A stretch of DNA of 45,905 nt, taken from positions 1 through 45,905 of the IMG/VR virus record IMGVR_UViG_643348547_000010; one strand, given 5' to 3'. A program made the translations under genes and the position numbers. This stretch comes from a virus (lineage: Duplodnaviria; Heunggongvirae; Uroviricota; Caudoviricetes). Shown piece by piece: positions 422-40,770 of this stretch. Under the pieces are notes generated by a model that ran no database searches, was not told where the DNA came from, and saw only the letters and a list, made by a program, of their open reading frames with translations. Position 1 is the stretch's first letter. The number at the start of each line of letters is the position of its first letter.

Positions 422-748
422 ATGACTAAAAATACTCGTTTTTCCCCCGAAGTCCGTCAACGGGCAGTCCGTATGGTTCTGGAAAGTCAGGGCGAATATG
501 ACTCACAATGGGCGACAATTTGTTCCATTGCCCCAAAGATTGGCTGTACACCGGAGACTCTGCGTGTCTGGGTACGCCAGCATGAGCGGGATACCGGAGG
601 CGGTGATGGCGGGCTCACCACCGCTGAACGTCAGCGTCTGAAAGAGCTGGAACGTGAAAATCGTGAACTGCGCCGCAGTAACGATATCCTTCGCCAGGCT
701 TCCGCTTATTTTGCGAAGGCGGAGTTCGACCGCCTCTGGAAAAAGTGA
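422..748 (+). CDS. IS629 OrfA (IS3-family transposase N-terminal HTH protein)
   Basis: 108-aa [25 protein letters not shown]..., near-identical to orfA of the copies at 14287 and 15893-16219. Confidence 0.9.
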
Positions 749-1162
749 TGCCACTGCTGGATAAGCTGCGTAAGCTGTACGGGGTCGGACCGGTATGCAG
801 TGAACTACATATTGCCCCGTCAACGTATTACCACTGTCAGCAACAGCGACATCATCCTGATAAACGCAGTGCCCGTGCGCAGCGCGATGACTGGCTGAAG
901 AAAGAGATACTGCGCGTATACGATGGGAATCATCAGGTATACGGTGTGCGTAAAGTCTGGCGTCAGTTGTTACGGGAAGGAATCAGGGTAGCCAGATGTA
1001 CAGTGGCGCGCCTCATGGCGGTTATGGGACTTGCCGGTGTTCTCCGGGGTAAAAAGGTCCGCACTACCGTCAGCCGGAAAGCCGTTGCCGCAGGCGACCG
1101 CGTAAACCGTCAGTTTGTGGCAGAACGTCCTGACCAGTTGTGGGTGGCTGATTTTACTTACG
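745..1162 (+). pseudogene. IS629 orfB, 5' part, interrupted by group II intron
   Basis: Translation identical to intact OrfB (14610-15500) up to ...QLWVADFTY, then diverges exactly at the intron 5' end. Confidence 0.8.
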
Positions 1163-1818
1163 GTGTGCCCGGAGTTCAGGGCGGGCATGGATGCTTAAAT
1201 GAACCGCGAGTCTGTCTGGAATATTGAACCGGTAACTCACGATGAGAAACCCAACAATCCCACCGGGTGTGACGGTGGAGAACCTGAGCGGCAGTGACCT
1301 GCGGCATGCCCGCAGGGTGATGTAACCCGCTGACAACGGGGATTGAGGCGAGATCACTAAGCCGAGATGATCCTCAAGGTTAAGTACTGAAAGGCTGAAG
1401 AACATGAACCCGTTAATCCGCCTCTGTGGGTTGAAAACGTCACCACGGCCTACGTGATCTGACAGGCCGTGCAGGAGGAACTGGCAGTGATACGTAAGCA
1501 CTGCCGGTCGAAGGTGTTTTGACATGTATGCGAAACACCGGGGCAGCAGCGTCTATCACGCTTGCGTTGCTGACTTCTGCCAACTTGCGGCAAGCAAGGA
1601 TAAAGAGTGCGACGGGCAGCCTCCTCAGTATGCCTGAGTCCAGGCAGGTAAACCGGGGAAGGTCAGCGACGGATGTTAAGGGGGCATGGCTCCGATGACG
1701 CGCTGGCTGGCGGAGCTTCCGTAGTAGTCCGCGATGGGGAAAGCCCATTACATGGCGAAGGGAAGCAGTTTGAATGTGTTTGCGACGTGAATTAACTGAC
1801 CTAACGAGGTGAAGACCT

Positions 1819-3342
1819 TTGATAATCAGCGAAATGCAACGCAAGCTTGCCACATGGGCAGCCACCGATCCGTCCCTACGGATTCAACGGCTGCTGCGTC
1901 TAATAACACAACCAGAATGGCTGGCTGAAGCGGCGCGGATCACGCTTTCATCAAAGGGGGCCCATACCCCCGGCGTTGATGGCGTGAACAAAACAATGCT
2001 ACAGGCCAGACTGGCTGTTGAGCTGCAAATCCTCAGGGATGAATTACTCTCAGGCCACTACCAGCCCTTGCCCGCCAGACGGGTTTACATCCCTAAAAGC
2101 AACGGCAAACTGCGACCACTGGGTATCCCCGCGTTGCGGGATCGTATTGTTCAGCGGGCCATGCTGATGGCGATGGAGCCGATATGGGAGAGTGATTTTC
2201 ATACGCTCTCATATGGCTTCCGGCCTGAGCGCAGTGTCCACCACGCGATCCGCACGGTGAAATTACAGCTCACAGACTGCGGTGAAACCCGGGGACGCTG
2301 GGTGATTGAAGGCGACCTGTCCAGTTACTTCGACACCGTACATCATCGACTGCTGATGAAGGCTGTACGCCGCAGGATCAGTGACGCACGTTTCATGACT
2401 CTGCTGTGGAAAACCATCAAGGCGGGACATATCGATGTCGGTCTCTTTCGGGCGGCCAGTGAAGGTGTGCCACAGGGCGGTGTTATATCGCCGCTATTAT
2501 CGAACATCATGCTGAATGAGTTCGATCAATACCTGCATGAGCGCTACCTGAGCGGGAAAGCCAGAAAAGATCGGTGGTACTGGAATAACAGTATCCAACG
2601 GGGCCGAAGTACGGCGGTCAGAGAAAACTGGCAGTGGAAACCCGCGGTGGCGTACTGCCGCTATGCCGATGATTTTGTCCTCATCGTCAAAGGCACCAAA
2701 GCACAGGCGGAAGCCATCAGGGAGGAGTGTCGGGGTGTGCTCGAAGGCAGTCTGAAACTCAGGCTGAACATGGATAAGACTAAAATCACCCATGTTAATG
2801 ACGGCTTTATCTTTCTGGGGCACAGGATCATTCGCAAACGCAGTCGTTATGGCGAGATGCGAGTGGTCTCAACGATCCCGCAGGAGAAAGCCAGAAACTT
2901 CGCCGCATCGCTGACAGCACTGTTATCAGGCAACTACAGTGAAAGCAAAGTCGATATGGCTGAACAACTCAACCGAAAACTGAAAGGCTGGGCCATGTTC
3001 TATCAGTTCGTTGATTTTAAGGCCAAAGTCTTCAGTTATATCGACCGTGTCGTGTTCTGGAAGCTGGCTCACTGGCTGGCCCGCAAATACCGTACAGGTA
3101 TCGCTTCCCTGATGAGGTGGTGGTGTAAATCACCGAAACCGGGTCAGAGCAAAACGTGGGTTTTATTTGGTAAAACCAATCACGGCAAGCTCAGCGGCGA
3201 AATACTGTACCGGTTGGTGGGGCAAGGCAAGAAGCTGTTCCGCTGGCGGCTACCCGAAGGTAATCCCTATCTGAGGACGGAGACCAGAAACACGTATACA
3301 TCGCGCTTTACAGAAGTGGCAATGGCGTTCGCCAGCATTTAA
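1819..3342 (+). CDS. Group II intron-encoded reverse transcriptase/maturase
   Basis: 507-aa ORF with RT palm motifs (FDTVHHRLL, YADDFVLIV) and C-terminal maturase-like region; no HNH/En motifs visible. Confidence 0.9.
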   Translation: MIISEMQRKLATWAATDPSLRIQRLLRLITQPEWLAEAARITLSSKGAHTPGVDGVNKTMLQARLAVELQILRDELLSGHYQPLPARRVYIPKSNGKLRPLGIPALRDRIVQRAMLMAMEPIWESDFHTLSYGFRPERSVHHAIRTVKLQLTDCGETRGRWVIEGDLSSYFDTVHHRLLMKAVRRRISDARFMTLLWKTIKAGHIDVGLFRAASEGVPQGGVISPLLSNIMLNEFDQYLHERYLSGKARKDRWYWNNSIQRGRSTAVRENWQWKPAVAYCRYADDFVLIVKGTKAQAEAIREECRGVLEGSLKLRLNMDKTKITHVNDGFIFLGHRIIRKRSRYGEMRVVSTIPQEKARNFAASLTALLSGNYSESKVDMAEQLNRKLKGWAMFYQFVDFKAKVFSYIDRVVFWKLAHWLARKYRTGIASLMRWWCKSPKPGQSKTWVLFGKTNHGKLSGEILYRLVGQGKKLFRWRLPEGNPYLRTETRNTYTSRFTEVAMAFASI

Positions 3343-3347
3343 ATGGA

Positions 3348-3381
3348 GAGCCGGATGCGCTGAAAGGTGCACGTCCGGTTC
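3348..3381 (+). ncRNA. Group II intron domain V
   Basis: GAGCCGGATGCGCTGAAAGGTGCACGTCCGGTTC: 34-nt hairpin with AGC triad and GNRA-type loop, located just after the IEP stop and followed by a short domain VI-like hairpin. Confidence 0.8.
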
Positions 3382-3404
3382 GGGGAGGAGAGGCAGGGAA
3401 ATAG

Positions 3405-3905
<501 letters not shown>

Positions 3906-4826: not shown

Positions 4827-5452
4827 ACCGCCAGCACCTTACTGGCAGTGATGTACCGCGCTCGCCGGTCGTCGATGCCGTTCCGGCCACCATTGATAAT
4901 CAGAGTTACACGTGCAATATCGCCGGTATACTTCATGCAGCCTTTGCTGACGAAGAACCACGCCGCGCTACGAGCCGCATATTCGTCCTGCGCCAGCAGT
5001 TCAGGGCTCTCCAGCAGGTCAACCTTCAGACCGTTTCCGCAATCACGATAGTTATTCAAACCGGTAATCTGGATAAGTCCGCGCCCTCGGTAATTCCAGC
5101 CATCACCAGGGGCATTGTTCCCCATGCGTTTGCTGTATACCAGATTTGCGATCGCGCGCTGGCGCTCAAGTGGCAATGGTGGTTCACCAGCACGGCGCCC
5201 CAGTGCATTAGCCTGCCCCTGAGTGAGACGCCCAGCCCGAACGAAGTTAGCCAGTCCGCTGACACTGTAGTTGAAATTCTCCTGCAACCTGGTGAAGCCC
5301 CCAGACTCATGCCCGGCTTGAGCAATAAACATTGCCTGATCTTCTGCTTTGCTGATACCAAACTCTTTCATCGCAGAAGTTATATGCGAGAACCAGCGTG
5401 CGGCCAGTGCCTCGCTGATACCAGCAGCTCGCTGGAATTGTTTAATCTCCAT
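4823..5452 (-). CDS. Endolysin, glycoside hydrolase family 19-like
   Basis: Start taken at [13 protein letters not shown]... (RBS GAGG upstream); motif [12 protein letters not shown] typical of GH19 phage endolysins. Confidence 0.8.
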
Positions 5453-5750
5453 GTTTAGACCTCGATACTTTAAAAATTTGAACGACGTTACCGCGCGTTT
5501 TAATAACCGCAGCCAGCATGACAGCGTTGATAATGACCTCAGATAAATCCACAGCCATTGGCGTACGTAACCAGATTGCATAGGCGACTCGAACAGGAAT
5601 ACTGGCCGCAGCAACAATCAGGAAATAAGCAAGCCATCCTCCCCACCTTCGATGTTGAGAGCCGTTACGCCGGAATGTGACAACGCGAATTGCTATGCCA
5701 GTGCAAATAACTGCATTAGTGATAAGCAAAAAAAACTCATGCGTTACCAT
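5442..5750 (-). CDS. Holin/antiholin-like small membrane protein
   Basis: 102 aa with 2-3 hydrophobic segments, overlapping the endolysin start. Confidence 0.5.
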
Positions 5751-6422: not shown

Positions 6423-6449
6423 CCCGCAATATTTTGCGGGCTTTTTTTT
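6423..6449. terminator. GC hairpin plus T8 run abutting the tailspike stop codon
   Basis: CCCGCAATATTTTGCGGGCTTTTTTTT; the U-run is on the plus strand, so it is a better plus-strand than minus-strand terminator. Confidence 0.4.
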
Positions 6450-9400
6450 AACGTTCTTCCAGAGACTGAACCCGCTCTTTTATCTTATCCATTTCTCTGC
6501 GCTGCCATGCTGCCTCGATATAGAATAAGAGATCAGGTCTGACCCCCCATCTAGATCCTGCTGGCGTTATTTCAACGCGCTCAATGATGTCTTCTATTAC
6601 CATCACTGGATTATCATCCTCATCAACAATGATGCTCCCGTCATTATCAGTCAGCGGCATTTCCCTTTGGCCAGTAATGACGTCATCATATACTGCGGGA
6701 TAATCGTCATAGCAAAGAAAGGCATAGCGGCATGTTGTGCTTTCTTCTTCCATGAGTCCGTGAGAAATAAGAACATCACGAAGTTGCTGCGCGATTACAC
6801 CATGATGTATCCTCGCCCCTTCTTCCCCCTTTATAGCGACAGCGTTCAGCCATTTATAAGCGATATACCTGACGTCACCCCAGGCATCCAGCAATGCTTC
6901 GTCAGGAGAGACCGGCTCTGTCTTTAATGTTCCGTCACTGGTAACCACAGGATTGGAGCCAAGATAAACTGTCGAGAACCTGTTTCCCGGACCACCAAGA
7001 GCATTTACATTATCAAGATAAGGTTTAACATCTCCGTTCTCAAAAAGATGTTCGAGTGCGTTATATACCGCGCGACGTGGAGTACTGCTTCCGGAACCAT
7101 GCAACGTTATCATTGCACCATCTGCTGAAGACGTTGTTTCACCGCCGCTAACGATTAATCTCTGAGCGGTAACATCATCAGACGGTACTTTCTTCGCAAT
7201 AATGGCGTAATTACCCTCAAGTTTGACTTCCGCGCGAACTTGTCCTGATGTACCTGCATGGACAGTCAGTGACTGGACGGCAACATCATCTGTGAAATCA
7301 ACGGGTACAGGAACCGTCCTCACGCCTGACGTCGACATAAAAGTAGGAAGCGTTCTGTTAGGAGTGGCTCCGTAGACAAAATCCCTTGAAACAAATTCTT
7401 CCTGTTTAATTTTCACCCTGAAACAATACAAATCAGCCGGGTGACCATCGTGAACATAAGGATATTTTCTGTTGTTATCCCCTATGCTCCATGGGTTTAG
7501 AAAGTCTTCCCCACCGAAAATGTAGTACAGCCAGTTGTCTTTGATACAAACTGAACCAACACCAACCGCAGAGTTAACTATTCCGCCCTGATAAATCTGA
7601 TCAGTAACATTAACCCACTCTACATTATCCAGACTCCACTCATTGACGTTAACTCTGGTCATAAATGTTCTTGGATAATTTCCTGCATAACGGTTATCAG
7701 GTTCTCCTCCTTCCCACTCACCAAATGCGCGCTCACTGCCAAAAATAATCAGCTCATCGCCAACTTTGGCAAAAGGAAGGTTTGAGTGATGAACATTATT
7801 TGGGAAGCGAAGAGAATTCCATGATGTACCTAAATCAGAGCTTCTGTGCAATGAACTACCGGGTTGAGTACTTAATGTCCCCCTGGTCGTCAGATACAGA
7901 ATGCCATCATAATATTTTACACATGGCTCAGATGCATTCGCCTCATATTCTACAGGTATGCGTCTGCGAACAAAGCTACCAGGAGAACCGAAAGCATCAG
8001 AGAAATAGAGTATCCCAAGCTCGCGTGGACCAATATCACCATTATGGTAGCCAACAGCAAAACTGTTATCGCTAATCGTCGCAAAACTGTGAATCTCAGT
8101 AACAGGAGTGCTTCCGTCAACAAAAGAAGGAATAGTTCCAAGACTGGTTTTTCTCCATGGTGACGAGTGAAATGATGTGCCAAAACTCCAGTATCTACCC
8201 TCGTTATTCTGATCCACATCCTGGGTATTTTGCGTCGTAACTGTAAAGGTATTTTTATCAATAACAGTAGTCACCGTCATATTCCCGGTAACACCTGTAA
8301 CACCAGAGTTTGAGAAGTTGACAAAATCACCAGCAAATAATCCGTGATCAGTAATGCGAATATAAGCGACTTGCTGATTTGCTGCTTTCGTTATACCACC
8401 ATAAACGCGAAGGCTGCGACTCATTGGGCGATCCCACAACTCTGCAACCTGCAGTTTATTTCCTCTCACGGTCCGCGTCTCAATTACAGCAAAAAGGCGA
8501 TTTCTGACAACCCCCATACTCATGCAGTGATAGTTAACTGTGGGATAGTTTTCATGTAAATCTGTAAGCCATTCCGGCGTTGTCCAGGTCTTCCCGTCAT
8601 CTCCTGAGCGAACCCATGCAACATGGAGGTTATTTACACCATGGCGGTCTCCAGCCATAAAAGGCGCATAGATGACATTGTCATATACAAACGTTTTATC
8701 CTGCGTCCAGGCGTTGTACCACGGTGTATCTGTAATTTTAAATAACTCTCCCTGGATAAAATCTTCAGAAGCATAAAAAAGAGGCTGGCCCGGTATTCTC
8801 TCAAATAAAAAACGAGCATTTTTAAATCGACTGACATCCGGAAGAGTTGATACTTTAAAAGTAAGCCCTAATCCGTCAATTTTATAACCTGGAGATGAGG
8901 CTTCAAGGCACGCGCTTATTGCAGTGGAATCGTCATTTATACCATCACCAACAGCTCCAAAATCTTTGGGGCTAATAGCATCACGCATTTTATCCTGGAA
9001 CGTTCGGTACACAGCCCCAGAACCATACTGAATAAACCAACCAAAACCACCAACAACTCCGGCGATTGCAGCATCGACATAATTACGCATTGAGCGATTA
9101 TTTACAGCGTCCTGCTCAAATGATGGATCTGCAAGGTTAGAAATTTTGTTTTGCTTTGCATCGTAATATTTTGCAAGCAAAGATGGTTTCATCAATGCAC
9201 GTCTGAACCACCCAAAACATTGCTGGATCAGCATCGTCAGGTAGTCAAAGGCATCTTCATGCACTTCGGGGAAAAATTTTCCCTGATTGCGAAGGTCTGT
9301 GTCCTGCACTACATCAAGCACACGATCTATCGTAATTCGCCATCCAGTAGCAAGCGGAGACGGAAGAACCACAGAACCGCCACTATAAGTGCCCGCCACA

Positions 9401-9567
9401 GTTACCGTATAACCGGTATCCAGGACCAATTCTGTTACGTTCCCGTTCAGGTCAGACACCTGAACAACCAGGTCTGATTTTCTGAAAATTCGAAAAGTAT
9501 ACGGAAACGATGTCGTAACGCCGTTACCGGTGTATTCGTTGTGGTCAACTTCGGTTGAGACCGTCAT
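6448..9567 (-). CDS. Tail fibre/tailspike: T7 gp17-like N-terminal adaptor, glycosidase-like body with Asp-box motifs, C-terminal intramolecular chaperone (peptidase S74-like)
   Basis: N-terminus MTVSTEVDHNEYTGNGVTTSFPYTF... and NLADPSFEQDAVNNRS resemble tail-fibre N-domains; DFGAVGDGINDDSTAI beta-helix-type motif; Asp-boxes SGDDGKTW and SSDLGTSW; C-terminal ...SDGTLKTEP...HHGVIAQQL... chaperone-like. Confidence 0.8.
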   Translation of the reverse strand: MTVSTEVDHNEYTGNGVTTSFPYTFRIFRKSDLVVQVSDLNGNVTELVLDTGYTVTVAGTYSGGSVVLPSPLATGWRITIDRVLDVVQDTDLRNQGKFFPEVHEDAFDYLTMLIQQCFGWFRRALMKPSLLAKYYDAKQNKISNLADPSFEQDAVNNRSMRNYVDAAIAGVVGGFGWFIQYGSGAVYRTFQDKMRDAISPKDFGAVGDGINDDSTAISACLEASSPGYKIDGLGLTFKVSTLPDVSRFKNARFLFERIPGQPLFYASEDFIQGELFKITDTPWYNAWTQDKTFVYDNVIYAPFMAGDRHGVNNLHVAWVRSGDDGKTWTTPEWLTDLHENYPTVNYHCMSMGVVRNRLFAVIETRTVRGNKLQVAELWDRPMSRSLRVYGGITKAANQQVAYIRITDHGLFAGDFVNFSNSGVTGVTGNMTVTTVIDKNTFTVTTQNTQDVDQNNEGRYWSFGTSFHSSPWRKTSLGTIPSFVDGSTPVTEIHSFATISDNSFAVGYHNGDIGPRELGILYFSDAFGSPGSFVRRRIPVEYEANASEPCVKYYDGILYLTTRGTLSTQPGSSLHRSSDLGTSWNSLRFPNNVHHSNLPFAKVGDELIIFGSERAFGEWEGGEPDNRYAGNYPRTFMTRVNVNEWSLDNVEWVNVTDQIYQGGIVNSAVGVGSVCIKDNWLYYIFGGEDFLNPWSIGDNNRKYPYVHDGHPADLYCFRVKIKQEEFVSRDFVYGATPNRTLPTFMSTSGVRTVPVPVDFTDDVAVQSLTVHAGTSGQVRAEVKLEGNYAIIAKKVPSDDVTAQRLIVSGGETTSSADGAMITLHGSGSSTPRRAVYNALEHLFENGDVKPYLDNVNALGGPGNRFSTVYLGSNPVVTSDGTLKTEPVSPDEALLDAWGDVRYIAYKWLNAVAIKGEEGARIHHGVIAQQLRDVLISHGLMEEESTTCRYAFLCYDDYPAVYDDVITGQREMPLTDNDGSIIVDEDDNPVMVIEDIIERVEITPAGSRWGVRPDLLFYIEAAWQRREMDKIKERVQSLEER

Positions 9568-9670
9568 GTTAAATCTCCAGATAGTCGCAGCACCCGTTGC
9601 GCCGCATATCTGGTTATTCTATTACCTGAAAAACCATATATGGATAAAAAGACTATAAATACCAATAGAT

Positions 9671-9687
9671 ATTACCTTTCGGGTAAT
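9671..9687. promoter_or_regulatory. Operator-like 17-bp palindrome (site A)
   Basis: ATTACCTTTCGGGTAAT, intergenic, upstream of 9763 gene. Confidence 0.5.
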
Positions 9688-9762
9688 TTGCAAAACGTGC
9701 TGGATAGCAAACAAATTATTTGTTACTGTATAAACATACAGTTATTGCATGGAGAAGATAAG

Positions 9763-10020
9763 ATGCAGCAGTATCACTATCCACTGGAAGACGGATTTAC
9801 CGAAAGGATTCACACGCCGGGAGGCGTCAGGTCACTGGTGGAGGGATCGCACTTGATGAAATTACTCCGGGATCTCGATAAGGATGGATTTAATGTCGAT
9901 GGCCCACTTGCCGAACTGACTGCACTGATTAACTACGTCACCAGCTCACAGATGTCTATGCAGGATCTGCAAACACATCTCGACTATTGTGCCGAACAAT
10001 TACGAAAACAAACCAGATAA
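9763..10020 (+). CDS. Small protein paralogous to the C-terminal domain of the antirepressor at 10338-10994
   Basis: Start at internal ATG with GGAGAAG RBS; about 45 percent identity by eye to the last 80 aa of the AntA-like protein (shared ...IH-P-GV..L.E.S.LM.LL..L..DG..V.G..AELT....Y...LQTH..Y). Confidence 0.5.
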   Translation: MQQYHYPLEDGFTERIHTPGGVRSLVEGSHLMKLLRDLDKDGFNVDGPLAELTALINYVTSSQMSMQDLQTHLDYCAEQLRKQTR

Positions 10021-10023
10021 GGT

Positions 10024-10052
10024 TTGCAATTACCAAATAGAGTGCTTATATT
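10024..10052 (+). promoter_or_regulatory. Sigma70-like promoter TTGCAA-N17-TATATT
   Basis: Hexamers at 10024-10029 and 10047-10052; operator site B begins 27 bp after the -35 start. Confidence 0.45.
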
Positions 10053-10067
10053 TACCTTTGCGGTAAA
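10051..10067. promoter_or_regulatory. Operator-like 17-bp palindrome (site B)
   Basis: TTTACCTTTGCGGTAAA overlapping the -10/+1 of the promoter above. Confidence 0.5.
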
Positions 10068-10180
10068 TTTACATCGCACTCCTCTTGTGCCATAGTAATC
10101 GGGCACTGGCAAAATCCAGTGCCGGGATTGGTCTCCCGGATTACTAAGTGGCGCATACCACGCCAGACGTGGTTTTTTTA
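10059..10180 (+). ncRNA. Candidate structured leader or small RNA upstream of antirepressor gene
   Basis: About 120 nt between promoter/operator and an intrinsic terminator; contains stem-loops CACTGG...CCAGTG and CCGGGA...TCCCGG; no convincing ORF (track ORF 10119-10310 starts at GTG with no RBS). Confidence 0.3.
10158..10180 (+). terminator. Intrinsic terminator
   Basis: CCACGCCAGACGTGG followed by T7. Confidence 0.6.
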
Positions 10181-10337
10181 TGCGTATAGCACAGTCATGC
10201 CAGAATTATGGTGGGCTGAATGGGGGTCCGAAAGGACGCCGGTACCACTTAGGCCGGTAAGACCAACTCCGTTCAGTTCACCACCATCTGATTGGTCTCA
10301 GCGGTGGTGATGTAATTCGCTAAGTGGAGACGCCATC

Positions 10338-10994
10338 ATGAACGCTCAACTCATCCCCGTATTCAACGGCACTATCGCCAACGAAACCACTCTTCTCGTT
10401 AATGCTCGCGATTTACATACTTTTCTTGGGGTAGGTAAACGCTTTGCATCGTGGATTACAGAACGCATTGCTGAATATGGTTTCGTTGAAAATCAGGACT
10501 ATATTTTGGTTTCCCCAAATCGGGAAATCAAAGGTCGAGGAGGCGATCGCCGTAGCAAAGACTATCACCTCACCCTCGATACGGCCAAAGAAACTGCGAT
10601 GGTCGAGCGCAACGAAAAAGGCCGCCAGATACGCCGATACTTCATTGAATGCGAGAAACGTTTAAGACAACAAGAAACAAAGGTGGAGAAGGTCTTGTCA
10701 GGCTTCATGCCCGCCATTATGGAGGCGATCAAACTGGAAGACAAAAAAGAATACAGTGCCCCACTGAAGCCAGGCTACCGTAGCCTGATTCATTCGCCGT
10801 CTGGTGTTCTCGGCCTGACGGAGAACTCACTGCTGATGAATCTGCTGAACCAGTTGCAGGAAGACGGGCACGATGTATCGGGCGCGGCGGCGGAACTGAC
10901 CACCATGTTCTGCTACATCGTCGGTGTGAGCAAATGCCTGCGTGATATCCAGACGCACGCGGAGTACATCAACGACAAGGCAGGATTCTTCTGA
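10338..10994 (+). CDS. Antirepressor, AntA-like N-terminal domain plus C-terminal domain
   Basis: N-terminal DLHTFLGVGKRFASWITERIAEYGFVENQDYIL pattern typical of AntA/AntB-type antirepressors; RBS GGAG upstream. Confidence 0.7.
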   Translation: MNAQLIPVFNGTIANETTLLVNARDLHTFLGVGKRFASWITERIAEYGFVENQDYILVSPNREIKGRGGDRRSKDYHLTLDTAKETAMVERNEKGRQIRRYFIECEKRLRQQETKVEKVLSGFMPAIMEAIKLEDKKEYSAPLKPGYRSLIHSPSGVLGLTENSLLMNLLNQLQEDGHDVSGAAAELTTMFCYIVGVSKCLRDIQTHAEYINDKAGFF

Positions 10995-11167: not shown

Positions 11168-11184
11168 TTTACCCTAATGGTAAA
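11168..11184. promoter_or_regulatory. Operator-like 17-bp palindrome (site D)
   Basis: TTTACCCTAATGGTAAA. Confidence 0.5.
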
Positions 11185-11223
11185 TCCCGCTTAAAGAAGC
11201 ATCTATATATTATGAGGTGATGT

Positions 11224-11859
11224 ATGCCACAACAACTGCTGAATCCGGCAAAGGTAACTGAGGTTTTCGCTCATCTGAACGAAACTCCAGACAACCGCGC
11301 CCTGTATTCAGAGTTAGTGAACGGCAACGATGTCACATCTGATGTCAAAGGCGTTTCTCTGGCTCCTGGATACCGCGTTGTCCGTGTAGACGATCGTAAG
11401 AAAGGCGAGATTCCACAGGCGCACTTTGAACTGTCATTGATAAATGACCTCACCGAAGAGGTAGTGTATTACAATCGTGTCATTATCCAGCCTGACAGCT
11501 ATCTTAACTGCCGTCCTGTCACGCAGATATTGGTATGGAGAACCCAGAAGCCTAAGCATCGTGCTGTGCTTCATGATTTCGCCGGCATCATCTTCATGAA
11601 CTACCTCTTGGAACGGTACGATATCATCGTGTCAGATCGCAACCAGACTCATGAAGGCATGTCGTTCTGGCAGGCTCGCATGTATGACGCACTGGAACTT
11701 GGCCTCCACCTCTATGGTTACGACATGATGACATGCGAGCTGATAGAGATGAATAACGAGGAAGAGCTTGAGAAAGGTGAAACCTGGTTGTGGGGTGATG
11801 CGGAAAACTTCCAAAACAGATTGGCCATAATTTCAAAGCATAAGCTGCCAATAAAATAG
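11224..11859 (+). CDS. Hypothetical protein (accessory gene in antirepressor island)
   Basis: 211-aa ORF with RBS (GAGGTGA), followed by a strong terminator; no family recognised. Confidence 0.6.
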   Translation: MPQQLLNPAKVTEVFAHLNETPDNRALYSELVNGNDVTSDVKGVSLAPGYRVVRVDDRKKGEIPQAHFELSLINDLTEEVVYYNRVIIQPDSYLNCRPVTQILVWRTQKPKHRAVLHDFAGIIFMNYLLERYDIIVSDRNQTHEGMSFWQARMYDALELGLHLYGYDMMTCELIEMNNEEELEKGETWLWGDAENFQNRLAIISKHKLPIK

Positions 11860-12389: not shown

Positions 12390-12578
12390 TTATTTTATTA
12401 TTCTTCCGAACAATACAATTCCGAATACTACAAAGCCGAACCATGCCGCTGCACGCAACAGAGATTCCAATTGAAACCCATTTTTATCAAAATGTATGAA
12501 TAGCATAAAAACGCTGCACATATTAGTACAATAAAAGTTATTTGAACCATCATATCTCCTTTTATTGCGGAGTGACAT
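12390..12578 (-). CDS. Small hypothetical protein with C-terminal hydrophobic segment
   Basis: 62-aa ORF only; overlaps the end of the upstream gene. Confidence 0.3.
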   Translation of the reverse strand: MSLRNKRRYDGSNNFYCTNMCSVFMLFIHFDKNGFQLESLLRAAAWFGFVVFGIVLFGRIIK

Positions 12579-14232
12579 CCTGTGGTCGCCACCAGTATGT
12601 CTGGTTAAACTCTTTCTTCGAACGTTGCTCCATTTTACGCAAATAGCCTGGTGAAAAATACTCCTGCATCTGGTTAAAGATCATGTGATCGAGAGCCGCC
12701 TTCAAGTACCAGAGATTCGCACCAGGCATCAAACCTTTCCCCAGCTTCACCAGATCACCACCAGTCTGCTCACTCTTCCCTTCCACAGCATTTAACGGTA
12801 TGCCCTGAGCAATCTTCACTACGTCATCAACCAGACCAGCTACCGGGCCAAGCATCGACGCCAGCGCGCCGCTTCCGTACCTAGTGTGATCTGACAATAA
12901 AAAGTCACCGTAAAGGCCAAGACCACCACCTTTCAGTAGAGCACCAAGCCAGAATTTTGCGGCATCTTCTCCTGTCATCTCTCGAGGATTACGACCAGAC
13001 GCAAGGTCGTTAAGTTGCTGCGACAAAGCGCCAAGAATGGTCGTACTGGCAATAAACGTCGCAATATATGCCGCACGCCCACCAGCAGACGGCATACCCA
13101 TAGCGCGTGACCAGTGACGCATAACAACCGAGATAGGGAACGATTTAAACAGGAAAACACTTCTCGTTAATTCACCTTTCCATGTTCCACGCTGAATACC
13201 AGAACCGGTTATCAGTTGCTCACGTGCTCCCGGTGTAATAACAGCCATATCAACTTCTTCAGTTACGGCACCGAGCAGTTTACGCATTGCCTCAAATTTC
13301 ACGCGTTCAGGCTCACCAAGATGTTTAACTGCTGAATCAGGGATACGCATAATGCTTTCCGGTGTCAGCATCGTATTATTACCGTTCCCCCAGTCCTCCT
13401 GTTTCGCCAGCTTCCATACGCTCCAGTCTGTGTCAGTAATCCCTTTGCTTTTCAGGATACGAAAATCAGAGTCATCGAGGCTACGAAGGTCTGGTGTCCG
13501 TGACACTACTTCTCCCAGGCTTCCCATCATGGTTACGCCATAGGCGCGCTTGTGCGCATCTGACCATGCTGTAAGCCCACTGGCACGCATTACCGCCGTT
13601 GCCGCCCAACGAGACACTGACGGCCCCATATTATCCATCGCCCAGCGGTTAACGCTGCCAAGTAGAGATTCCATCGCCAGACCAGCGCGGCGCGCCCGCG
13701 CAAGTTCTGTACGGTTCGTTGGGTCCATAGCTTCAAGCTGGTTGCGGAATAACTGGTTCATTGGAAGGTTGGTAACCTTCGCAGACAGATACATGGTTCC
13801 AAGATCAGAGAACGATGACAGCAACGCGGATCCGAGTCTGCTGGCAACCAGCCAGTTGCGGATATTGTCAGACCATCGCGCGATGTGCGGATTCGCTACA
13901 GGCTGTGTCTTTCCGGAAATAAAGTTGTACAGATTCTCTGTGTTGTTCGCCAGCCGCTCGACTTTACCGGTTTTACTCGGGTTAGCTGTTGCCGTTTCTG
14001 CCTTCACCTGATCAAGAAGAGAGCGGAAAACATGATCGGGGTTTGGGCCATATGTTTCCACCAGTGCAATATCTTTACTGATACCTTCCAGGTGACCGAC
14101 CATGATTTCCCATAGAGAGCGATCGCCATAAAGTTGCTGATATTGCAGATAGGAATCTGCATCTTTGAAATGTATCTGTCGTGATGCATTACCACGGTTA
14201 GCACGTGCGCCGGAAATTCGCATTCCGGTATC
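12562..14232 (-). pseudogene. Internal virion (ejection/core) protein gene, C-terminal portion, separated from its 5' part by IS629 copies
   Basis: 557 codons of phage sequence downstream of IS629 left end; the track ORF (12562-14325) starts inside the IS. Confidence 0.7.
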
Positions 14233-14286
14233 TGAACCGCCCCGGGAATCCTGGAGACTAAACTTCCTGAGAAAGAGGTAAACAGG

Positions 14287-14613
14287 ATGACTAAAAATAC
14301 TCGTTTTTCCCCCGAAGTCCGTCAACGGGCAGTCCGTATGGTTCTGGAAAGTCAGAGCGAATATGACTCACAATGGGCGACAATTTGTTCCATTGCTCCA
14401 AAGATTGGCTGTACGCCGGAGACTCTGCGTGTCTGGGTTCGCCAGCATGAGCGGGATACCGGGGGCGGTGATGGAGGGCTCACCACCGCTGAACGTCAGC
14501 GTCTGAAAGAGCTGGAACGTGAAAATCGTGAACTGCGCCGCAGTAACGATATCCTTCGCCAGGCTTCCGCTTATTTTGCGAAGGCGGAGTTCGACCGCCT
14601 CTGGAAAAAATGA
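14287..14613 (+). CDS. IS629 OrfA
   Basis: 108-aa ORF, same protein as 422-748 apart from one residue. Confidence 0.9.
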
Positions 14614-15500
14614 TGCCACTGCTGGATAAGCTGCGTGAGCAGTACGGGGTCGGACCGCTATGCAGCGAACTGCATATTGCCCCGTCAACGTATTACCACT
14701 GTCAGCAACAGCGACATCATCCGGATAAACGCAGTGCCCGTGCGCAGCGCGATGACTGGCTGAAGAAAGAGATACAGCGCGTATACGATGAAAATCACAA
14801 GGTATACGGTGTGCGTAAAGTCTGGCGTCAGTTGTTACGGGAAGGTATCAGAGTGGCCAGATGCACTGTGGCACGTCTCATGGCGGTTATGGGACTTGCC
14901 GGTGTTCTCCGGGGTAAAAAGGTCCGTACGACCATCAGCCGGAAAGCCGTTGCCGCAGGCGACCGCGTAAACCGTCAGTTCGTGGCAGAACGACCTGACC
15001 AGCTGTGGGTGGCTGATTTTACTTACGTCAGCACATGGCGGGGCTTCGTCTATGTGGCGTTCATCATTGATGTGTTTGCCGGATACATCGTGGGGTGGCG
15101 GGTCTCATCGTCCATGGAAACGACATTCGTGCTGGATGCACTGGAGCAGGCGTTATGGGCCCGTCGACCGTCCGGCACGGTCCATCACAGTGATAAAGGT
15201 TCTCAGTATGTATCGCTGGCCTACACACAGCGGCTTAAGGAAGCCGGATTACTGGCATCAACAGGAAGTACAGGCGACTCGTATGACAACGCGATGGCGG
15301 AGAGCATCAATGGTCTTTACAAAGCGGAGGTAATACACCGTAAGAGCTGGAAAAACCGTGCAGAAGTGGAACTGGCCACACTCACGTGGGTGGACTGGTA
15401 TAACAATCGACGATTGCTGGAAAGGCTGGGCCATACTCCTCCGGCAGAAGCAGAAAAAGCTTATTATGCTTCCATCGGAAACGATGATCTGGCAGCCTGA
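14610..15500 (+). CDS. IS629 OrfB (DDE transposase catalytic part)
   Basis: 296-aa ORF overlapping orfA in the -1 frame as in IS3-family elements. Confidence 0.9.
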
Positions 15501-15542
15501 GTTCACAGATAAAACACTCTCCAGGAAACCCGGGGCGGTTCA

Positions 15543-15896
15543 GTCGCCTGCGGCAACGGCTTTCCGGCTGATGGTCGTACGGACCTTTTTACCCCGGAGA
15601 ACACCGGCAAGTCCCATAACCGCCATGAGACGTGCCACAGTGCATCTGGCCACTCTGATACCTTCCCGTAACAACTGACGCCAGACTTTACGCACACCGT
15701 ATACCTTGTGATTTTCATCGTATACGCGCTGTATCTCTTTCTTCAGCCAGTCATCGCGCTGCGCACGGGCACTGCGTTTATCCGGATGATGTCGCTGTTG
15801 CTGACAGTGGTAATACGTTGACGGGGCAATATGCAGTTCGCTGCATAGCGGTCCGACCCCGTACTGCTCACGCAGCTTATCCAGCAGTGGCATCAT
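15543..15896 (-). pseudogene. IS629 orfB, truncated
   Basis: Encodes first 117 aa of OrfB then runs into the neighbouring IS end. Confidence 0.8.
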
Positions 15897-16219
15897 TTTT
15901 TCCAGAGGCGGTCGAACTCCGCCTTCGCAAAATAAGCGGAAGCCTGGCGAAGGATATCGTTACTGCGGCGCAGTTCACGATTTTCACGTTCCAGCTCTTT
16001 CAGACGCTGACGTTCAGCGGTGGTGAGCCCTCCATCACCGCCCCCGGTATCCCGCTCATGCTGGCGAACCCAGACACGCAGAGTCTCCGGCGTACAGCCA
16101 GTCTTTGGAGCAATGGAACAAATTGTCGCCCATTGTGAGTCATATTCGCTCTGACTTTCCAGAACCATACGGACTGCCCGTTGACGGACTTCGGGGGAAA
16201 AACGAGTATTTTTAGTCAT
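15893..16219 (-). CDS. IS629 OrfA (in truncated copy)
   Basis: 108-aa ORF matching the other orfA copies. Confidence 0.85.
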
Positions 16220-16273
16220 CCTGTTTACCTCTTTCTCAGGAAGTTTAGTCTCCAGGATTCCCGGGGCGGTTCA

Positions 16274-17076
16274 GTAAGCTTATTCAGCCCACCAGTAGCG
16301 ATCGTGTTATAAGCCTCTCCAAGAAATGAAGACAACTCGGCATCGTTCATCAGTTGTCCATCGGCTCGGATATAATATTTGCGATCCAGCTTACCTATAA
16401 CATCGCTAACCCACTTATCCTTTGATACTGCCCCAACCTTTTCCATAGAATGATGTTGAGGGATCCCCCAGTTTTCGAGATAGCCAATGTCCCCACCAGC
16501 ATCATTAAACCGGCGGCGCAGCAGCTCTGTAACTTCTCTCCACGCCTTAGCACCGTTTCTTGCTTTAGCATTGCCAGTATTTTGCCCCCGCATTTCATAT
16601 ACCAGGTCACGTACGCCCGCTTCATCTTCAAACAGACCAAAAAAGCGAGGATCAACTGCTTCGAATGCCTCCTGCAATTGACTCAATGCATAATCACGGG
16701 TGGCTTTTGTTCTGGATTCAACAGAGAGGAAATTAGATTTACCGTCTGCATTAAAAGCTATAGTACGGTTAAGAGCGCCAAGTTTCCCATCAGCCCCTTG
16801 ATAGCTATTGATAAATTTATCCAATCTCTGACGTGCGGCTATAGTGAGAGCCACACGACGTTTCTTTAATGTCGCTTCTCGCTGTAATTCTTCAGATGCC
16901 AATTGTGCTGCACGATACAACCGTTCTGATTCGGAAAGTTGTCGCCACGACATCGGGTCATCACGAGCAATGGAGCGCATATTTCGATAAATGCGGTCTT
17001 CAATGTTCTGTATTTCTCGCGCCGTTAACGTGCGCTGCGCCGCCTGCTGGACCGCTTGTATACATTCCTGTCTCAT
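16274..17076 (-). pseudogene. Internal virion (ejection/core) protein gene, N-terminal portion, truncated by IS629
   Basis: Track ORF 16225-17076 reads from phage sequence into the IS end (last 16 residues IS-derived). Confidence 0.7.
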
Positions 17077-30655: not shown

Positions 30656-30684
30656 TTGACATTTAACGCACGAATTATTACCTT
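30656..30684 (+). promoter_or_regulatory. Possible promoter for the tRNA transcript (TTGACA at 30656-30661)
   Basis: Consensus -35 hexamer; -10 is weak and overlapped by operator site E. Confidence 0.3.
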
Positions 30685-31014: not shown

Positions 31015-31091
31015 GTGGCATTAGCTCACTTGGACAGAGCAACCGCCTTCTAAGCGGTTGGTCGCAGGTTCGAATCCTGCATGCCACGCCA
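31015..31091 (+). tRNA. tRNA-Arg (anticodon UCU), phage-encoded
   Basis: Cloverleaf by hand: acceptor GTGGCAT/ATGCCAC, D-arm GCTC/GAGC, anticodon stem ACCGC/GCGGT with loop CTTCTAA, T-arm GCAGG-TTCGAAT-CCTGC, discriminator G, CCA; sequence differs from host argU. Confidence 0.85.
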
Positions 31092-40114: not shown

Positions 40115-40131
40115 TTTACCTGTTGGGTAAT
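40115..40131. promoter_or_regulatory. Operator-like site J
   Basis: TTTACCTGTTGGGTAAT. Confidence 0.5.
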
Positions 40132-40185: not shown

Positions 40186-40770
40186 ATGAAAAGTATCCAG
40201 GACGTCCGCAGGCAAAATCTCAACGACTTGATCGACCGTGAATTCAATGGTGTTCAGACGCGGATGGCAGAAAAACTTGGAACTCAGGCAAATCTGGTAA
40301 ACCGCTGGGCTCTTGGCAAGAAGGTTATCGGCGACCAGGTTGCACGAAAAATTGAAGCTGCCGCCAATAAACCCCGTAACTGGCTTGATATTGATCGTTC
40401 GCTTTCTCAGGAGGGTTTTCAGCCTGTCGGCCCGAGCGATATAGGTCAGCTGGCGGCTCACAACCTGGAACGCTGGATGAGCGAAAGCCGCGACCTTTCA
40501 ACGCAGGGAAAACTTCACCGCGCATCCGGCGTCGCCCAGGTGACAATCAGTCGCCTGTTAAACAATGAGGTCAGCGTTTCCATTTCCACCCTGGAGAATG
40601 TTGCATCCGCATTCGGGCGTCACGGATATGAACTACTGATTCACCCGCACGACCCTGCGACTATCAACTATGACCGCTCGCGCTACGCATTGTTACCCGA
40701 AACCGAGAAAGCAAAGATCGAAAGTTACATTGAATTTGTCATCAACCAGAACGAAAAAAACAAACAATAA
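40186..40770 (+). CDS. Immunity repressor candidate: double-HTH DNA-binding protein without peptidase domain
   Basis: 194 aa; two Cro/C1-type HTH segments (QTRMAEKLGTQANLVNRWALGKK and VAQVTISRLLNNEVSVSISTLENVASAF); no Ser-Lys S24 motifs; own terminator. Confidence 0.65.
   Translation: MKSIQDVRRQNLNDLIDREFNGVQTRMAEKLGTQANLVNRWALGKKVIGDQVARKIEAAANKPRNWLDIDRSLSQEGFQPVGPSDIGQLAAHNLERWMSESRDLSTQGKLHRASGVAQVTISRLLNNEVSVSISTLENVASAFGRHGYELLIHPHDPATINYDRSRYALLPETEKAKIESYIEFVINQNEKNKQ

What the first reader, a model, noticed from the sequence alone, without database searches (positions are those of the whole stretch)
9763..10994. Stand-alone paralog of the antirepressor C-terminal domain
The 85-aa product of 9763-10020 aligns by eye over its whole length with the last about 80 residues of the 218-aa antirepressor (roughly 45 percent identity, shared HxPxGV, LM.LL, DG..V.G..AELT, LQTH blocks). 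A duplicated, separately expressed interaction domain could act as a decoy or modulator of the antirepressor-repressor interaction.
Basis: seen in the sequence. Interest (0 to 1): 0.5.

Follow-up and report, generated by a model that had tools for sequence, protein, structure and literature searches.

The report
SOS-controlled small antirepressor plus fused paralog
The 85-residue gene is not a decoy: it is the E. coli version of a known small phage protein that DNA damage switches on to knock out the prophage repressor, and the neighbouring 218-residue antirepressor carries an old copy of the same module under separate small-RNA control.

Summary
The product of 9763-10020 aligns without gaps to residues 137-214 of the 218-aa protein (40% identity, E 4e-16; z = 31 against shuffles).

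The interpretation needs correcting. The small protein is 88% identical over 83 aligned residues to the crystallised antirepressor Ant of Salmonella phage SPC32H (PDB 5D50). It sits at the same place in an epsilon15/phiV10-type (Uetakevirus) prophage. A 17/20 LexA box lies upstream, at the position where SPC32H and SPC32N differ by one base. The prophage also encodes the cognate repressor Rep, which has two HTH domains and no detectable peptidase domain (40186-40770). The small protein is therefore the primary SOS-triggered antirepressor, not a decoy. It occurs alone in phages that lack the large protein.

The 218-aa protein joins an AntA N-domain to a diverged Ant-type C-domain. It lies behind a P1-type isrK(a1b1)-C4 RNA cassette whose C4 loops complement its ribosome-binding site. 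In 12 related loci, the 8 with a fused copy have this cassette upstream of each copy, and the 4 without have none. The N-domain swaps (AntA, Bro-N, Rha, ORF6N) while the C-domain stays.

This is an E. coli member of a known system. The small gene is almost always annotated as hypothetical. Interest is modest.

The parts
9672..9686 (.). Rep operator palindrome TTACC-N5-GGTAA, 91 nt upstream of the small ant start and 105 nt upstream of the divergent tailspike start (9567)
   Evidence: The pattern occurs 10 times in the window against 0.04 expected. It is conserved at -91/-89 in 10 of 12 related loci. The equivalent site is annotated 'protein_bind repressor' in epsilon15.
9724..9743 (.). LexA (SOS) box TACTGTATAAACATACAGTT
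   Evidence: It matches the 20-nt E. coli consensus at 17/20 and is the only such site in the window, with 0 in 100 shuffles. CTGT-N8-ACAG sits at -37 in 9 of 12 loci while the spacer varies. SPC32H and SPC32N differ by one base in this box, ACAG to AAAG.
9763..10020 (+). Small antirepressor gene ant (85 aa), with SD GGAG at 9751-9754
   Evidence: 88% identity over 83 aligned residues to PDB 5D50 chain E 'Anti-repressor protein', E 4.1e-47. 100% identical to an unnamed ORF of phage ZX5 and 88% to SPC32H 'ant'. dN/dS about 0.07.
10024..10096 (+). Two sigma-70-like promoter matches (TTGCAA-17-TATATT and TTTACA-17-TG-CATAGT). The second would start transcription near the isrK 5' end at 10103.
   Evidence: Consensus scan only; inferred, not mapped.
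10052..10066 (.). Rep operator TTACCTTTGCGGTAA, lying between and abutting the two promoter-like sites
10103..10179 (+). isrK-type sRNA, equivalent to the a1/b1 target element of C4, ending in an intrinsic terminator (stem 10157-10173 plus a T run). Carries TTGGTCT (10128-10134) and CTAAGTGG (10144-10151).
   Evidence: Rfam isrK 67.7 bits (gathering score 50). c4-a1b1 scores 39.9 bits, below its gathering score of 46.7. Terminator; k-mers.
10204..10288 (+). C4-type antisense RNA, with exposed CCACTTAG (10245-10252) and AGACCAA (10260-10266)
   Evidence: Rfam C4 61.2 bits (gathering score 45). Fold; complementarity.
10292..10327 (+). Second copy of the C4 targets in the leader of the large ant: TTGGTCT (10292-10298) and CTAAGTGG (10320-10327). 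The latter overlaps SD GGAG at 10326-10329.
   Evidence: Exact complements of the C4 loops. TTGGTCT occurs only twice in the 45.9-kb + strand and CTAAGTGG three times.
10338..10994 (+). Large antirepressor (218 aa). AntA N-domain is aa 21-92 (10398-10613); Ant-type C-domain is aa 137-214 (10746-10979).
   Evidence: Pfam AntA 3.6e-27. phrog_377 'anti-repressor Ant' 1e-67. C-domain against 5D50_E 4.3e-14. C-domain dN/dS about 0.2.
40186..40770 (+). Prophage repressor Rep (194 aa), the presumed target of both Ant-domain proteins
   Evidence: Matches 5D50_A 'Repressor' at 4e-42 over its full length. Pfam reports only HTH-type families at E <= 0.01 and no S24 peptidase hit. 100% identical to the phiV10 and ZX5 repressors and 41.8% to SPC32H 'rep'. 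Operators flank it at 40116, 40828 and 40890.

Best explanation
The window holds an epsilon15/phiV10-type (Uetakevirus) prophage whose repressor Rep is probably inactivated by antirepressors rather than by self-cleavage, and the finding covers two of them.

(1) The 85-aa gene is the orthologue of SPC32H Ant. In the lysogen, host LexA sits on the SOS box at 9724-9743 and keeps the gene off. DNA damage removes LexA, and Ant is made. By analogy with the solved SPC32H complex, Ant acts as a tetramer that binds two Rep dimers, breaks the DNA-binding Rep tetramer, and so derepresses the TTACC-N5-GGTAA operators.

(2) The 218-aa protein is a fusion of an AntA N-domain with an anciently diverged copy of the same Ant module. 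It belongs to a separate P1-immI-like unit: a Rep operator in the promoter region, then the isrK/a1b1 RNA with a terminator, then the C4 antisense RNA. The C4 loops pair with the ribosome-binding site of the large ant. The large protein is therefore held off by Rep at transcription and by C4 at translation. It most likely acts as a second, SOS-independent or feed-forward route to the same target, Rep.

Shown here: homology, the regulatory sequence elements, their conservation and co-occurrence, and purifying selection. Inferred: LexA binding, Ant-Rep binding in this phage, Rep binding by the fused C-domain, and C4 action.
For: Identity of the small protein:
- 88% identity over 83 aligned residues, E 4e-47, to 5D50_E.
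- Homologues are annotated 'ant' in SPC32H and SPC32N.
- Same position, next to the tailspike gene, in every locus examined.

Cognate target:
- Rep matches 5D50_A at 4e-42. Pfam reports only HTH-type families for it and no S24 peptidase hit.
- In 50,697 phage records, the records that carry Rep (36 covering at least 80% of the query) and those that carry the Ant domain (34-35) are essentially the same set.

SOS control:
- The LexA box matches the consensus at 17/20 and is unique in the window.
- It is conserved at -37 in 9 of 12 loci with a variable spacer.
- One of the two SPC32H/SPC32N differences in the locus falls in its ACAG arm. This agrees with my recollection of Kim & Ryu 2013 that a LexA-box mutation makes Ant constitutive.
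- Secondary sources describe the mechanism: PMC7380047 and PMC9638917.

Large protein:
- Its C-domain hits 5D50_E at 4e-14 and keeps all 19 invariant columns of the family alignment.
- The fused form was seen only in genomes that also have the small Ant and Rep.
- The C-domain stays 96-99% identical among E. coli phages while the N-domain switches between AntA and Bro-N. More distant relatives are fused to Rha or ORF6N.
- ZX5 has an identical Rep. Its ORF4 (Bro-N plus a 98.8% identical C-domain), when overexpressed, lowered lysogen counts about 1000-fold (PMC9782041).

RNA control:
- isrK and C4 score above their Rfam gathering scores.
- Exact complements of the C4 loops overlap the SD of the large ant.
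- In 12 related loci, isrK and C4 lie upstream of each fused Ant copy in the 8 loci that have one and are absent from the 4 that do not.
Against: - Rep here is only 41.8% identical to SPC32H Rep, so Ant-Rep binding in this phage is inferred, not shown.
- No sigma-70 promoter for the small ant was found by the consensus scan. A Rep operator lies 91 nt upstream, so the gene may also be repressed by Rep, or that operator may serve the divergent tailspike promoter.
- The two paralogues are only 40% identical, and the residues that contact Rep could not be checked because no coordinates were available.
- AlphaFold models were poor (pLDDT 43.7 and 68.7).
- The primary SPC32H papers are not in the library. 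Mechanistic detail therefore rests on PDB titles, GenBank annotation, secondary descriptions and my memory.
- The prophage appears to be interrupted by an IS element, so induction may not yield virions in this strain.
Confidence: 0.85

Rival explanations
1. One reading: the small protein is a decoy or modulator. It would co-assemble with the C-domain of the large antirepressor, or compete with it for Rep, and so tune the large protein's activity rather than act on its own.
For: The two share a domain that is reported to form tetramers in SPC32H (PMC9638917), so mixed oligomers are conceivable. Both genes are adjacent and on the same strand.
Against: The small gene stands alone in epsilon15, SPC32H, BUCT554, BUCT711 and PAS61, which have no large paralogue, and there it is the named antirepressor. 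It has its own LexA box, and the large gene has its own promoter-like region, terminator and RNA control. The paralogues are only 37-44% identical and form two separate subfamilies, which argues against obligate co-assembly.
Confidence: 0.08
2. The small protein is the SOS antirepressor, but the fused C-domain does not target the resident Rep. It serves only as an oligomerisation domain, or it is tuned to repressors of other, heteroimmune Uetakevirus prophages. In the second case it would be an anti-immunity weapon used on infection, like P22 or P1 Ant.
For: The fused subfamily is clearly diverged from every small Ant (37-44%), although it is conserved within itself (54-99%). It lies in a P1-immI-like cassette. 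Some prophages carry two such cassettes with different C4 variants (L014 and L015). phiV10's annotators called the protein 'putative anti-immunity protein'.
Against: The ZX5 large protein has a 98.8% identical C-domain, and its overexpression reduced lysogeny of ZX5 itself, whose Rep is identical to the one here. The fused form was never seen outside genomes that carry this Rep family.
Confidence: 0.2
3. The small ORF is a non-functional remnant of a partial duplication of the large gene.
For: It is annotated 'hypothetical protein' almost everywhere and has no Pfam or NCBIfam family.
Against: dN/dS is about 0.07 at saturating dS. The 85-86-aa length is conserved across Escherichia, Salmonella, Enterobacter, Citrobacter and Klebsiella. 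The SD and LexA box are conserved. The orthologue's structure is solved.
Confidence: 0.01

Closest known systems
Ant-Rep antirepression switch of Salmonella podophage SPC32H (PDB 5D50/5D4Z; Kim & Ryu, J Virol 2013; Kim et al., PNAS 2016)
   Same: The small protein is 88% identical to the crystallised Ant. It has the same length and the same genomic position beside the tailspike gene. The LexA box is at the same distance from the start codon. The repressor is of the same family, with only HTH-type Pfam matches, and the operator half-sites are the same (TTACC...GGTAA).
   Different: The repressor is only 41.8% identical to SPC32H Rep. SPC32H and epsilon15 have no second Ant-domain protein and no isrK-C4 cassette. 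Nothing has been tested experimentally for the small gene of the E. coli phages.
immI region of phages P1/P7 (c4 antisense RNA - icd - ant1/ant2)
   Same: A repressor-controlled promoter is followed by the a1/b1 element, then the C4 RNA, then a second a2/b2 target pair covering a ribosome-binding site upstream of an antirepressor with an AntA-type N-domain. From my own knowledge: P1 also makes a long and a short Ant that share a C-terminal part.
   Different: Here the C4 target overlaps the SD of ant itself, and no convincing icd-like leader ORF is present. The C-terminal module is the Uetakevirus Ant fold aimed at a different repressor family. The short form is a separate, anciently diverged gene under LexA control, not an internal start.
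Gifsy-1 isrK-orf45-anrP locus of Salmonella (Hershko-Shalev et al. 2016, PMC4825925)
   Same: An IsrK sRNA with its own terminator is followed, by read-through, by a structured RNA (STnc1160) and then an antirepressor gene. That locus contributes to SOS-independent prophage induction. The Rfam isrK model matches at 67.7 bits.
   Different: The orf45 translational coupling shown in Gifsy-1 has no clear counterpart here. The antirepressor C-domain and its target repressor differ. No experiments exist for this locus.
LexA-controlled antirepressors Tum (coliphage 186) and the Gifsy/Fels-2 antirepressors (Lemire et al. 2011, PMC3121763)
   Same: The logic is the same: a repressor that is not cleaved, and a small antirepressor gene held off by host LexA and released by the SOS response.
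   Different: No family link was detected: the small Ant matches no Pfam or NCBIfam family, and the only solved structure resembling its model is 5D50. A direct comparison with Tum was not run.

Membership tests
SPC32H-type small antirepressor Ant (PDB 5D50 chain E; PHROG 450) | Full-length sequence homology to the crystallised 86-aa Ant | tested here: met
   phmmer E 4.1e-47, 88% identity over 83 aligned residues, aa 2-84 against 3-85. phrog_450 9e-48.
SPC32H-type small antirepressor Ant (PDB 5D50 chain E; PHROG 450) | Stand-alone protein of about 86 aa, encoded next to and divergent from the tailspike gene of a Uetakevirus genome | tested here: met
   9763-10020 (+) lies beside the tailspike gene at 6448-9567 (-). 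The same layout is seen in SPC32H, epsilon15, phiV10, ZX5, Tyrion and others.
SPC32H-type small antirepressor Ant (PDB 5D50 chain E; PHROG 450) | LexA box in the ant promoter region | tested here: met
   17/20 match to the consensus at 9724-9743, unique in the window. Same position as in SPC32H, where the SPC32N variant has ACAG changed to AAAG. LexA binding itself was not tested.
SPC32H-type small antirepressor Ant (PDB 5D50 chain E; PHROG 450) | Cognate Rep: a two-domain HTH repressor with no autocleavage domain, homologous to 5D50 chain A | tested here: met
   40186-40770 matches 5D50_A at 4e-42 over aa 1-190. Pfam reports only HTH-type families and no S24 peptidase hit.
SPC32H-type small antirepressor Ant (PDB 5D50 chain E; PHROG 450) | Physical binding of Ant to Rep, with release of Rep from operator DNA | not testable with these tools
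The monomer model was mediocre (pLDDT 68.7) and matched only 5D50.
Ant-domain C-terminal fusion (the 218-aa protein as a member of the same domain family) | Significant homology of the C-terminal 80 residues to Ant, with the family's invariant positions kept | tested here: met
   E 4.3e-14 against 5D50_E. phrog_450 3.8e-36. All 19 invariant columns of alignment A1 are kept.
Ant-domain C-terminal fusion (the 218-aa protein as a member of the same domain family) | Antirepressor activity against the resident Rep | tested here: inconclusive
   Only indirect evidence. ZX5 ORF4 has a 98.8% identical C-domain and an identical Rep, and its overexpression lowered lysogeny. The fused form strictly co-occurs with Rep.
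P1-type immI / C4 antisense control | C4 RNA and the upstream a1/b1 (isrK) element, scoring above Rfam thresholds | tested here: met
   C4 61.2 bits (gathering score 45). isrK 67.7 bits (gathering score 50). The c4-a1b1 model scores 39.9, below its gathering score of 46.7.
P1-type immI / C4 antisense control | A second target pair (a2/b2), complementary to the C4 loops, covering a ribosome-binding site | tested here: met
   TTGGTCT at 10292-10298 and CTAAGTGG at 10320-10327 complement C4 10260-10266 and 10245-10252. The latter overlaps SD GGAG at 10326-10329.
P1-type immI / C4 antisense control | A leader ORF (icd or orf45) translationally coupled to ant | tested here: not met
   The only ORFs there are a 63-aa GTG ORF ending 28 nt before ant and a 26-aa ORF inside C4. 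The C4 target covers the SD of ant directly.
Tum / Gifsy-type LexA-controlled antirepressors | Sequence or fold homology to Tum or the Gifsy antirepressors | not tested
   No direct comparison was run. The small Ant has no Pfam or NCBIfam family. Only the regulatory logic is shared.

The most novel reading that the evidence does not exclude
One repressor-binding module is deployed twice in the same prophage under orthogonal sensors: LexA for the free 85-aa form, and Rep plus C4/IsrK RNA for the fused form. The two forms might co-assemble into mixed tetramers, or the fused form might be tuned to foreign Uetakevirus repressors. In that case SOS and RNA-borne signals would be integrated at the protein level, or resident relatives would be induced on infection. 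The freely swappable N-domain (AntA, Bro-N, Rha, ORF6N) would then be a generic effector attached to a repressor-specific adaptor.
Probability: 0.2. Interest if true: 0.55.

Novelty: new member of a known kind. Interest (0 to 1): 0.3.

Why it matters
It gives a name and a mechanism to a gene that is almost always annotated 'hypothetical protein'. There is no Pfam or NCBIfam model for it, and PHROG 450 is labelled 'unknown function'. Yet it is present in phiV10-type prophages that are common in E. coli, including O157 typing phages, and a solved structure of the orthologue exists. The work on the E. coli phage ZX5 tested only the large protein and did not consider the small one. The prediction is that the small gene, not the large one, is required for SOS induction of these prophages. 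The result also shows that the C-terminal part of the large AntA/Bro-N/Rha/ORF6N 'antirepressors' found here is the Ant fold. That makes it the likely repressor-specific part of these modular proteins. This part always travels with an isrK-C4 RNA cassette.

Tried and rejected
- AlphaFold2 of the 218-aa protein with a 17-sequence alignment gave pLDDT 43.7. I did not use it for fold search.
- The small-Ant model reached pLDDT 68.7. It matched only 5D50, at TM 0.45. This adds nothing beyond the sequence match; the crystal form is reported to be a tetramer.
- The primary papers (Kropinski 2007, Kim & Ryu 2013, Kim et al. 2016) are not held in the library.
- The RNAduplex output for C4 against its flanks was not used; I ran an exact search for complementary k-mers instead.
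- The sigma-70 scan found no promoter for the small ant. My hand-picked hexamers were all weak, so the promoter remains unmapped.
- I rejected the Pfam DUF724 hit to the small protein (17.6 bits against a cut-off of 38.4) and the 7OYC hit to the large one (E 5e-4, covering the linker and the start of the C-domain) as chance matches.
- I rejected the 126-aa extended ORF from ATG 9640, because it runs across the operator and the LexA box.
- The word-indexed protein search with the small Ant returned only close stand-alone relatives. The fused architectures appeared only in the profile search.
Full report
**Observation.** The region holds two same-strand genes. One is an 85-aa ORF at 9763-10020, which the ORF lister reports as a 126-aa ORF from an upstream ATG at 9640. 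The other is a 218-aa ORF at 10338-10994.
- BLASTP aligns small aa 2-79 with large aa 137-214 without gaps. It gives 31/78 identities (40%), E 4e-16.
- A Smith-Waterman score of 164 compares with 27 +/- 4.4 (maximum 61) for 2000 shuffles, z = 31.

**What the small protein is.** Pfam and NCBIfam have no family for it, and PHROGs files it under phrog_450, 'unknown function'. A search of PDB sequences gives one hit: chain E of 5D50, 'Anti-repressor protein', 86 aa, E 4.1e-47, 88% identity over 83 aligned residues. 5D50 is the 'Rep-Ant complex from Salmonella-temperate phage'.
- tblastn against 50,697 phage records finds the protein in 35 records. These are epsilon15/phiV10-type podophages (Uetakevirus) or close relatives. 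In SPC32H and SPC32N the gene is annotated 'ant: anti-repressor protein'.
- The window is such a prophage. The flanking DNA matches phiv142-3, phiV10, ZX5 and TL-2011b at 91-95%.
- The small gene lies beside the divergent tailspike gene, as in all relatives.
- It is 100% identical to an unnamed ORF of phage ZX5 and corresponds to phiV10 p24 and epsilon15 gp19.
- It evolves under strong purifying selection, with dN/dS of 0.06-0.075 at dS of 1.4-2.6.

**Its target.** The ORF at 40186-40770 (194 aa) matches only HTH-type Pfam families, in two separate regions (aa 21-61 and aa 104-148), and gives no S24 peptidase hit. It matches chain A of 5D50, 'Repressor', over its full length at E 4e-42.
- It is 100% identical to the repressors of phiV10 and ZX5 and 41.8% identical to SPC32H 'rep'.
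- The palindrome TTACC-N5-GGTAA occurs 10 times in the window against 0.04 expected. It occurs around the repressor gene and at 9672, 10052 and 11169. The equivalent site upstream of epsilon15 gp19 is annotated as a repressor-binding site.
- Across the phage collection, the records carrying Rep (36 covering at least 80% of the query) and those carrying the Ant domain (34-35) are essentially the same set.

**Its control.** TACTGTATAAACATACAGTT at 9724-9743 ends 19 nt upstream of the start codon. It matches the 20-nt E. coli LexA consensus at 17/20. It is the only such site in the window, with none in 100 shuffles.
- In 9 of 12 related loci, CTGT-N8-ACAG sits at exactly -37 while the AT-rich spacer varies. 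The three Klebsiella phages have ATGT...ACAG.
- Within the 5.2-kb locus, SPC32H and SPC32N differ at two bases, and one changes ACAG to AAAG in this box. This agrees with my recollection of Kim & Ryu (J Virol 2013): a LexA-box mutation makes Ant constitutive in SPC32N. I could not read that paper.
- Secondary sources state that LexA cleavage leads to Ant synthesis (PMC7380047). [quoted passage not shown]

The small gene is therefore best read as the SOS-triggered antirepressor of this prophage. I did not locate its promoter. I also could not settle whether the operator at -91 acts on ant, on the divergent tailspike promoter, or on both.

**What the large protein is.** Its N-terminal aa 21-92 are a Pfam AntA domain (3.6e-27). 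Its aa 137-213 hit 5D50_E at 4.3e-14, and it keeps all 19 invariant columns of a family alignment.
- A profile search of 1.84 billion representative proteins finds a small family: 60 hits at E <= 1e-3. Some members are stand-alone proteins of 80-95 aa. In others the domain is the C-terminal part of longer proteins whose N-domains are AntA, Bro-N, Rha or ORF6N.
- Fused C-domains form their own subfamily. They are 54-99% identical to each other but only 37-44% identical to any small Ant, including the co-resident one. The duplication is therefore old.
- Both copies are kept by selection; the fused C-domain has dN/dS of about 0.2.
- Among E. coli phages the C-domain stays 96-99% identical while the N-domain switches between AntA (window, phiv142-3) and Bro-N (phiV10, ZX5, TL-2011b).
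- The fused form was never found without the small Ant and Rep. The small Ant does occur alone, in epsilon15, SPC32H, BUCT554, BUCT711 and PAS61.
- The one experiment I found concerns ZX5. Overexpressing its ORF4 (Bro-N plus the 98.8% identical C-domain), with a Rep identical to the one here, lowered prophage counts from 1e9 to 1e6. That study did not consider the small ORF (PMC9782041).

**How the large gene is controlled.** Rfam places an isrK sRNA at 10103-10179 and a C4 antisense RNA at 10204-10288, between the two genes. Both score above their gathering scores. The isrK stretch also matches the 'a1, b1 targets of C4' model, below its threshold.
- Promoter-like hexamers at 10024-10052 and 10068-10096 flank the Rep operator at 10052-10066. 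The second would start transcription at the isrK 5' end. isrK ends in a hairpin followed by a T run.
- Two stretches that the predicted fold of C4 leaves unpaired, CCACTTAG (10245-10252) and AGACCAA (10260-10266), have exact complements twice. One pair is inside isrK (10144-10151 and 10128-10134). The other is in the ant leader (10320-10327 and 10292-10298).
- The site at 10320-10327 overlaps the GGAG of the large ant's ribosome-binding site. These k-mers occur 2-3 times in the whole window.

This is the logic of the P1/P7 immI region, as I know it, and of the Gifsy-1 isrK-orf45-anrP locus (PMC4825925). One difference is that no convincing leader ORF is present. In 12 related loci the correlation is complete: the 8 with a fused Ant copy have isrK plus C4 upstream of each copy, two prophages carry two such cassettes, and the 4 with only the small Ant have none.

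**Verdict on the interpretation.** The proposed role as a decoy or modulator of the large antirepressor is not supported. The small protein is the self-sufficient, experimentally established antirepressor of this phage group, with its own SOS control. The large protein is the derived, optional one. Mixed oligomers remain possible but are untested.

**Novelty.** The small gene is an E. coli member of a known, structurally solved system. The large gene is a known kind of RNA-gated antirepressor. I found three points nowhere in the papers I could read:
- the C-terminal module of these large antirepressors is the Ant fold;
- that module always comes with an isrK-C4 cassette;
- E. coli Uetakevirus prophages therefore carry two, sometimes three, Ant-domain proteins under different controls.

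That is a useful annotation and a testable prediction, not a surprise. Interest is 0.3.

**Limits.** Nothing here shows binding, LexA occupancy or RNA action. The structure predictions were poor. The primary SPC32H papers were unavailable. The prophage in this window appears to be interrupted by an IS element.

Noticed in passing
window 12562-17076: An IS3-family transposase ORF (14610-15500, with rve and HTH_21 domains) and two ALIL frameshift pseudoknots in opposite orientation (14568-14684 on +, 15822-15938 on -) lie between ORFs 12562-14325 and 16225-17076. Those two ORFs look like the two halves of the roughly 824-aa virion structural gene of phiV10, so the prophage is probably defective.
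   Followed up: partly
window 700-3432: A second IS3-type copy (ALIL at 703-819; HTH_21 ORF at 745-1227) is followed by a group II intron reverse transcriptase/maturase ORF (1819-3342) and an Rfam group II intron hit (3346-3432). The intron may sit inside the IS element.
   Followed up: partly
window 11169-11859: A third local copy of the Rep operator (TTACCCTAATGGTAA, 11169-11183) precedes a 211-aa ORF (11224-11859). That ORF belongs to phrog_1349, of unknown function, and has no Pfam or NCBIfam match. An ORF of the same length follows the large Ant in another E. coli prophage (L015).
   Followed up: no
window 9640-9762: Many gene callers extend the small ant to 126-127 aa from an upstream ATG; one such cluster has 833 members. 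The extension runs across the Rep operator and the LexA box and is very likely a mis-call.
   Followed up: yes
L002 (phiV10) 5361-5486: In phiV10 the Ant-type C-domain of the large antirepressor is split over two reading frames (p23 plus the 29-aa p22). This is a frameshift or a sequencing error, and it would truncate the presumed Rep-binding module.
   Followed up: partly
L014 7789-8684 and L015 7676-8589: Some E. coli Uetakevirus prophages carry a third Ant-domain protein: a Bro-N fusion on the opposite strand with a 96-99% identical C-domain. It has its own isrK-C4 cassette, and its C4 variant scores differently from the first (77 against 61 bits). This suggests two RNA-immunity specificities in one prophage.
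   Followed up: partly
window 31015-31091: A tRNA-Arg (anticodon TCT) gene lies inside the prophage, between the packaging genes and a Rep operator copy at 30678.
   Followed up: no
(cross-phage identities): The small Ant is far more conserved than its target. Between the window and SPC32H, Ant is 88% identical and Rep 42%. For the Klebsiella phages the figures are 63% and 45%. The operator half-sites are the same in all of them. This hints at cross-reactive antirepressors within the genus.
   Followed up: no
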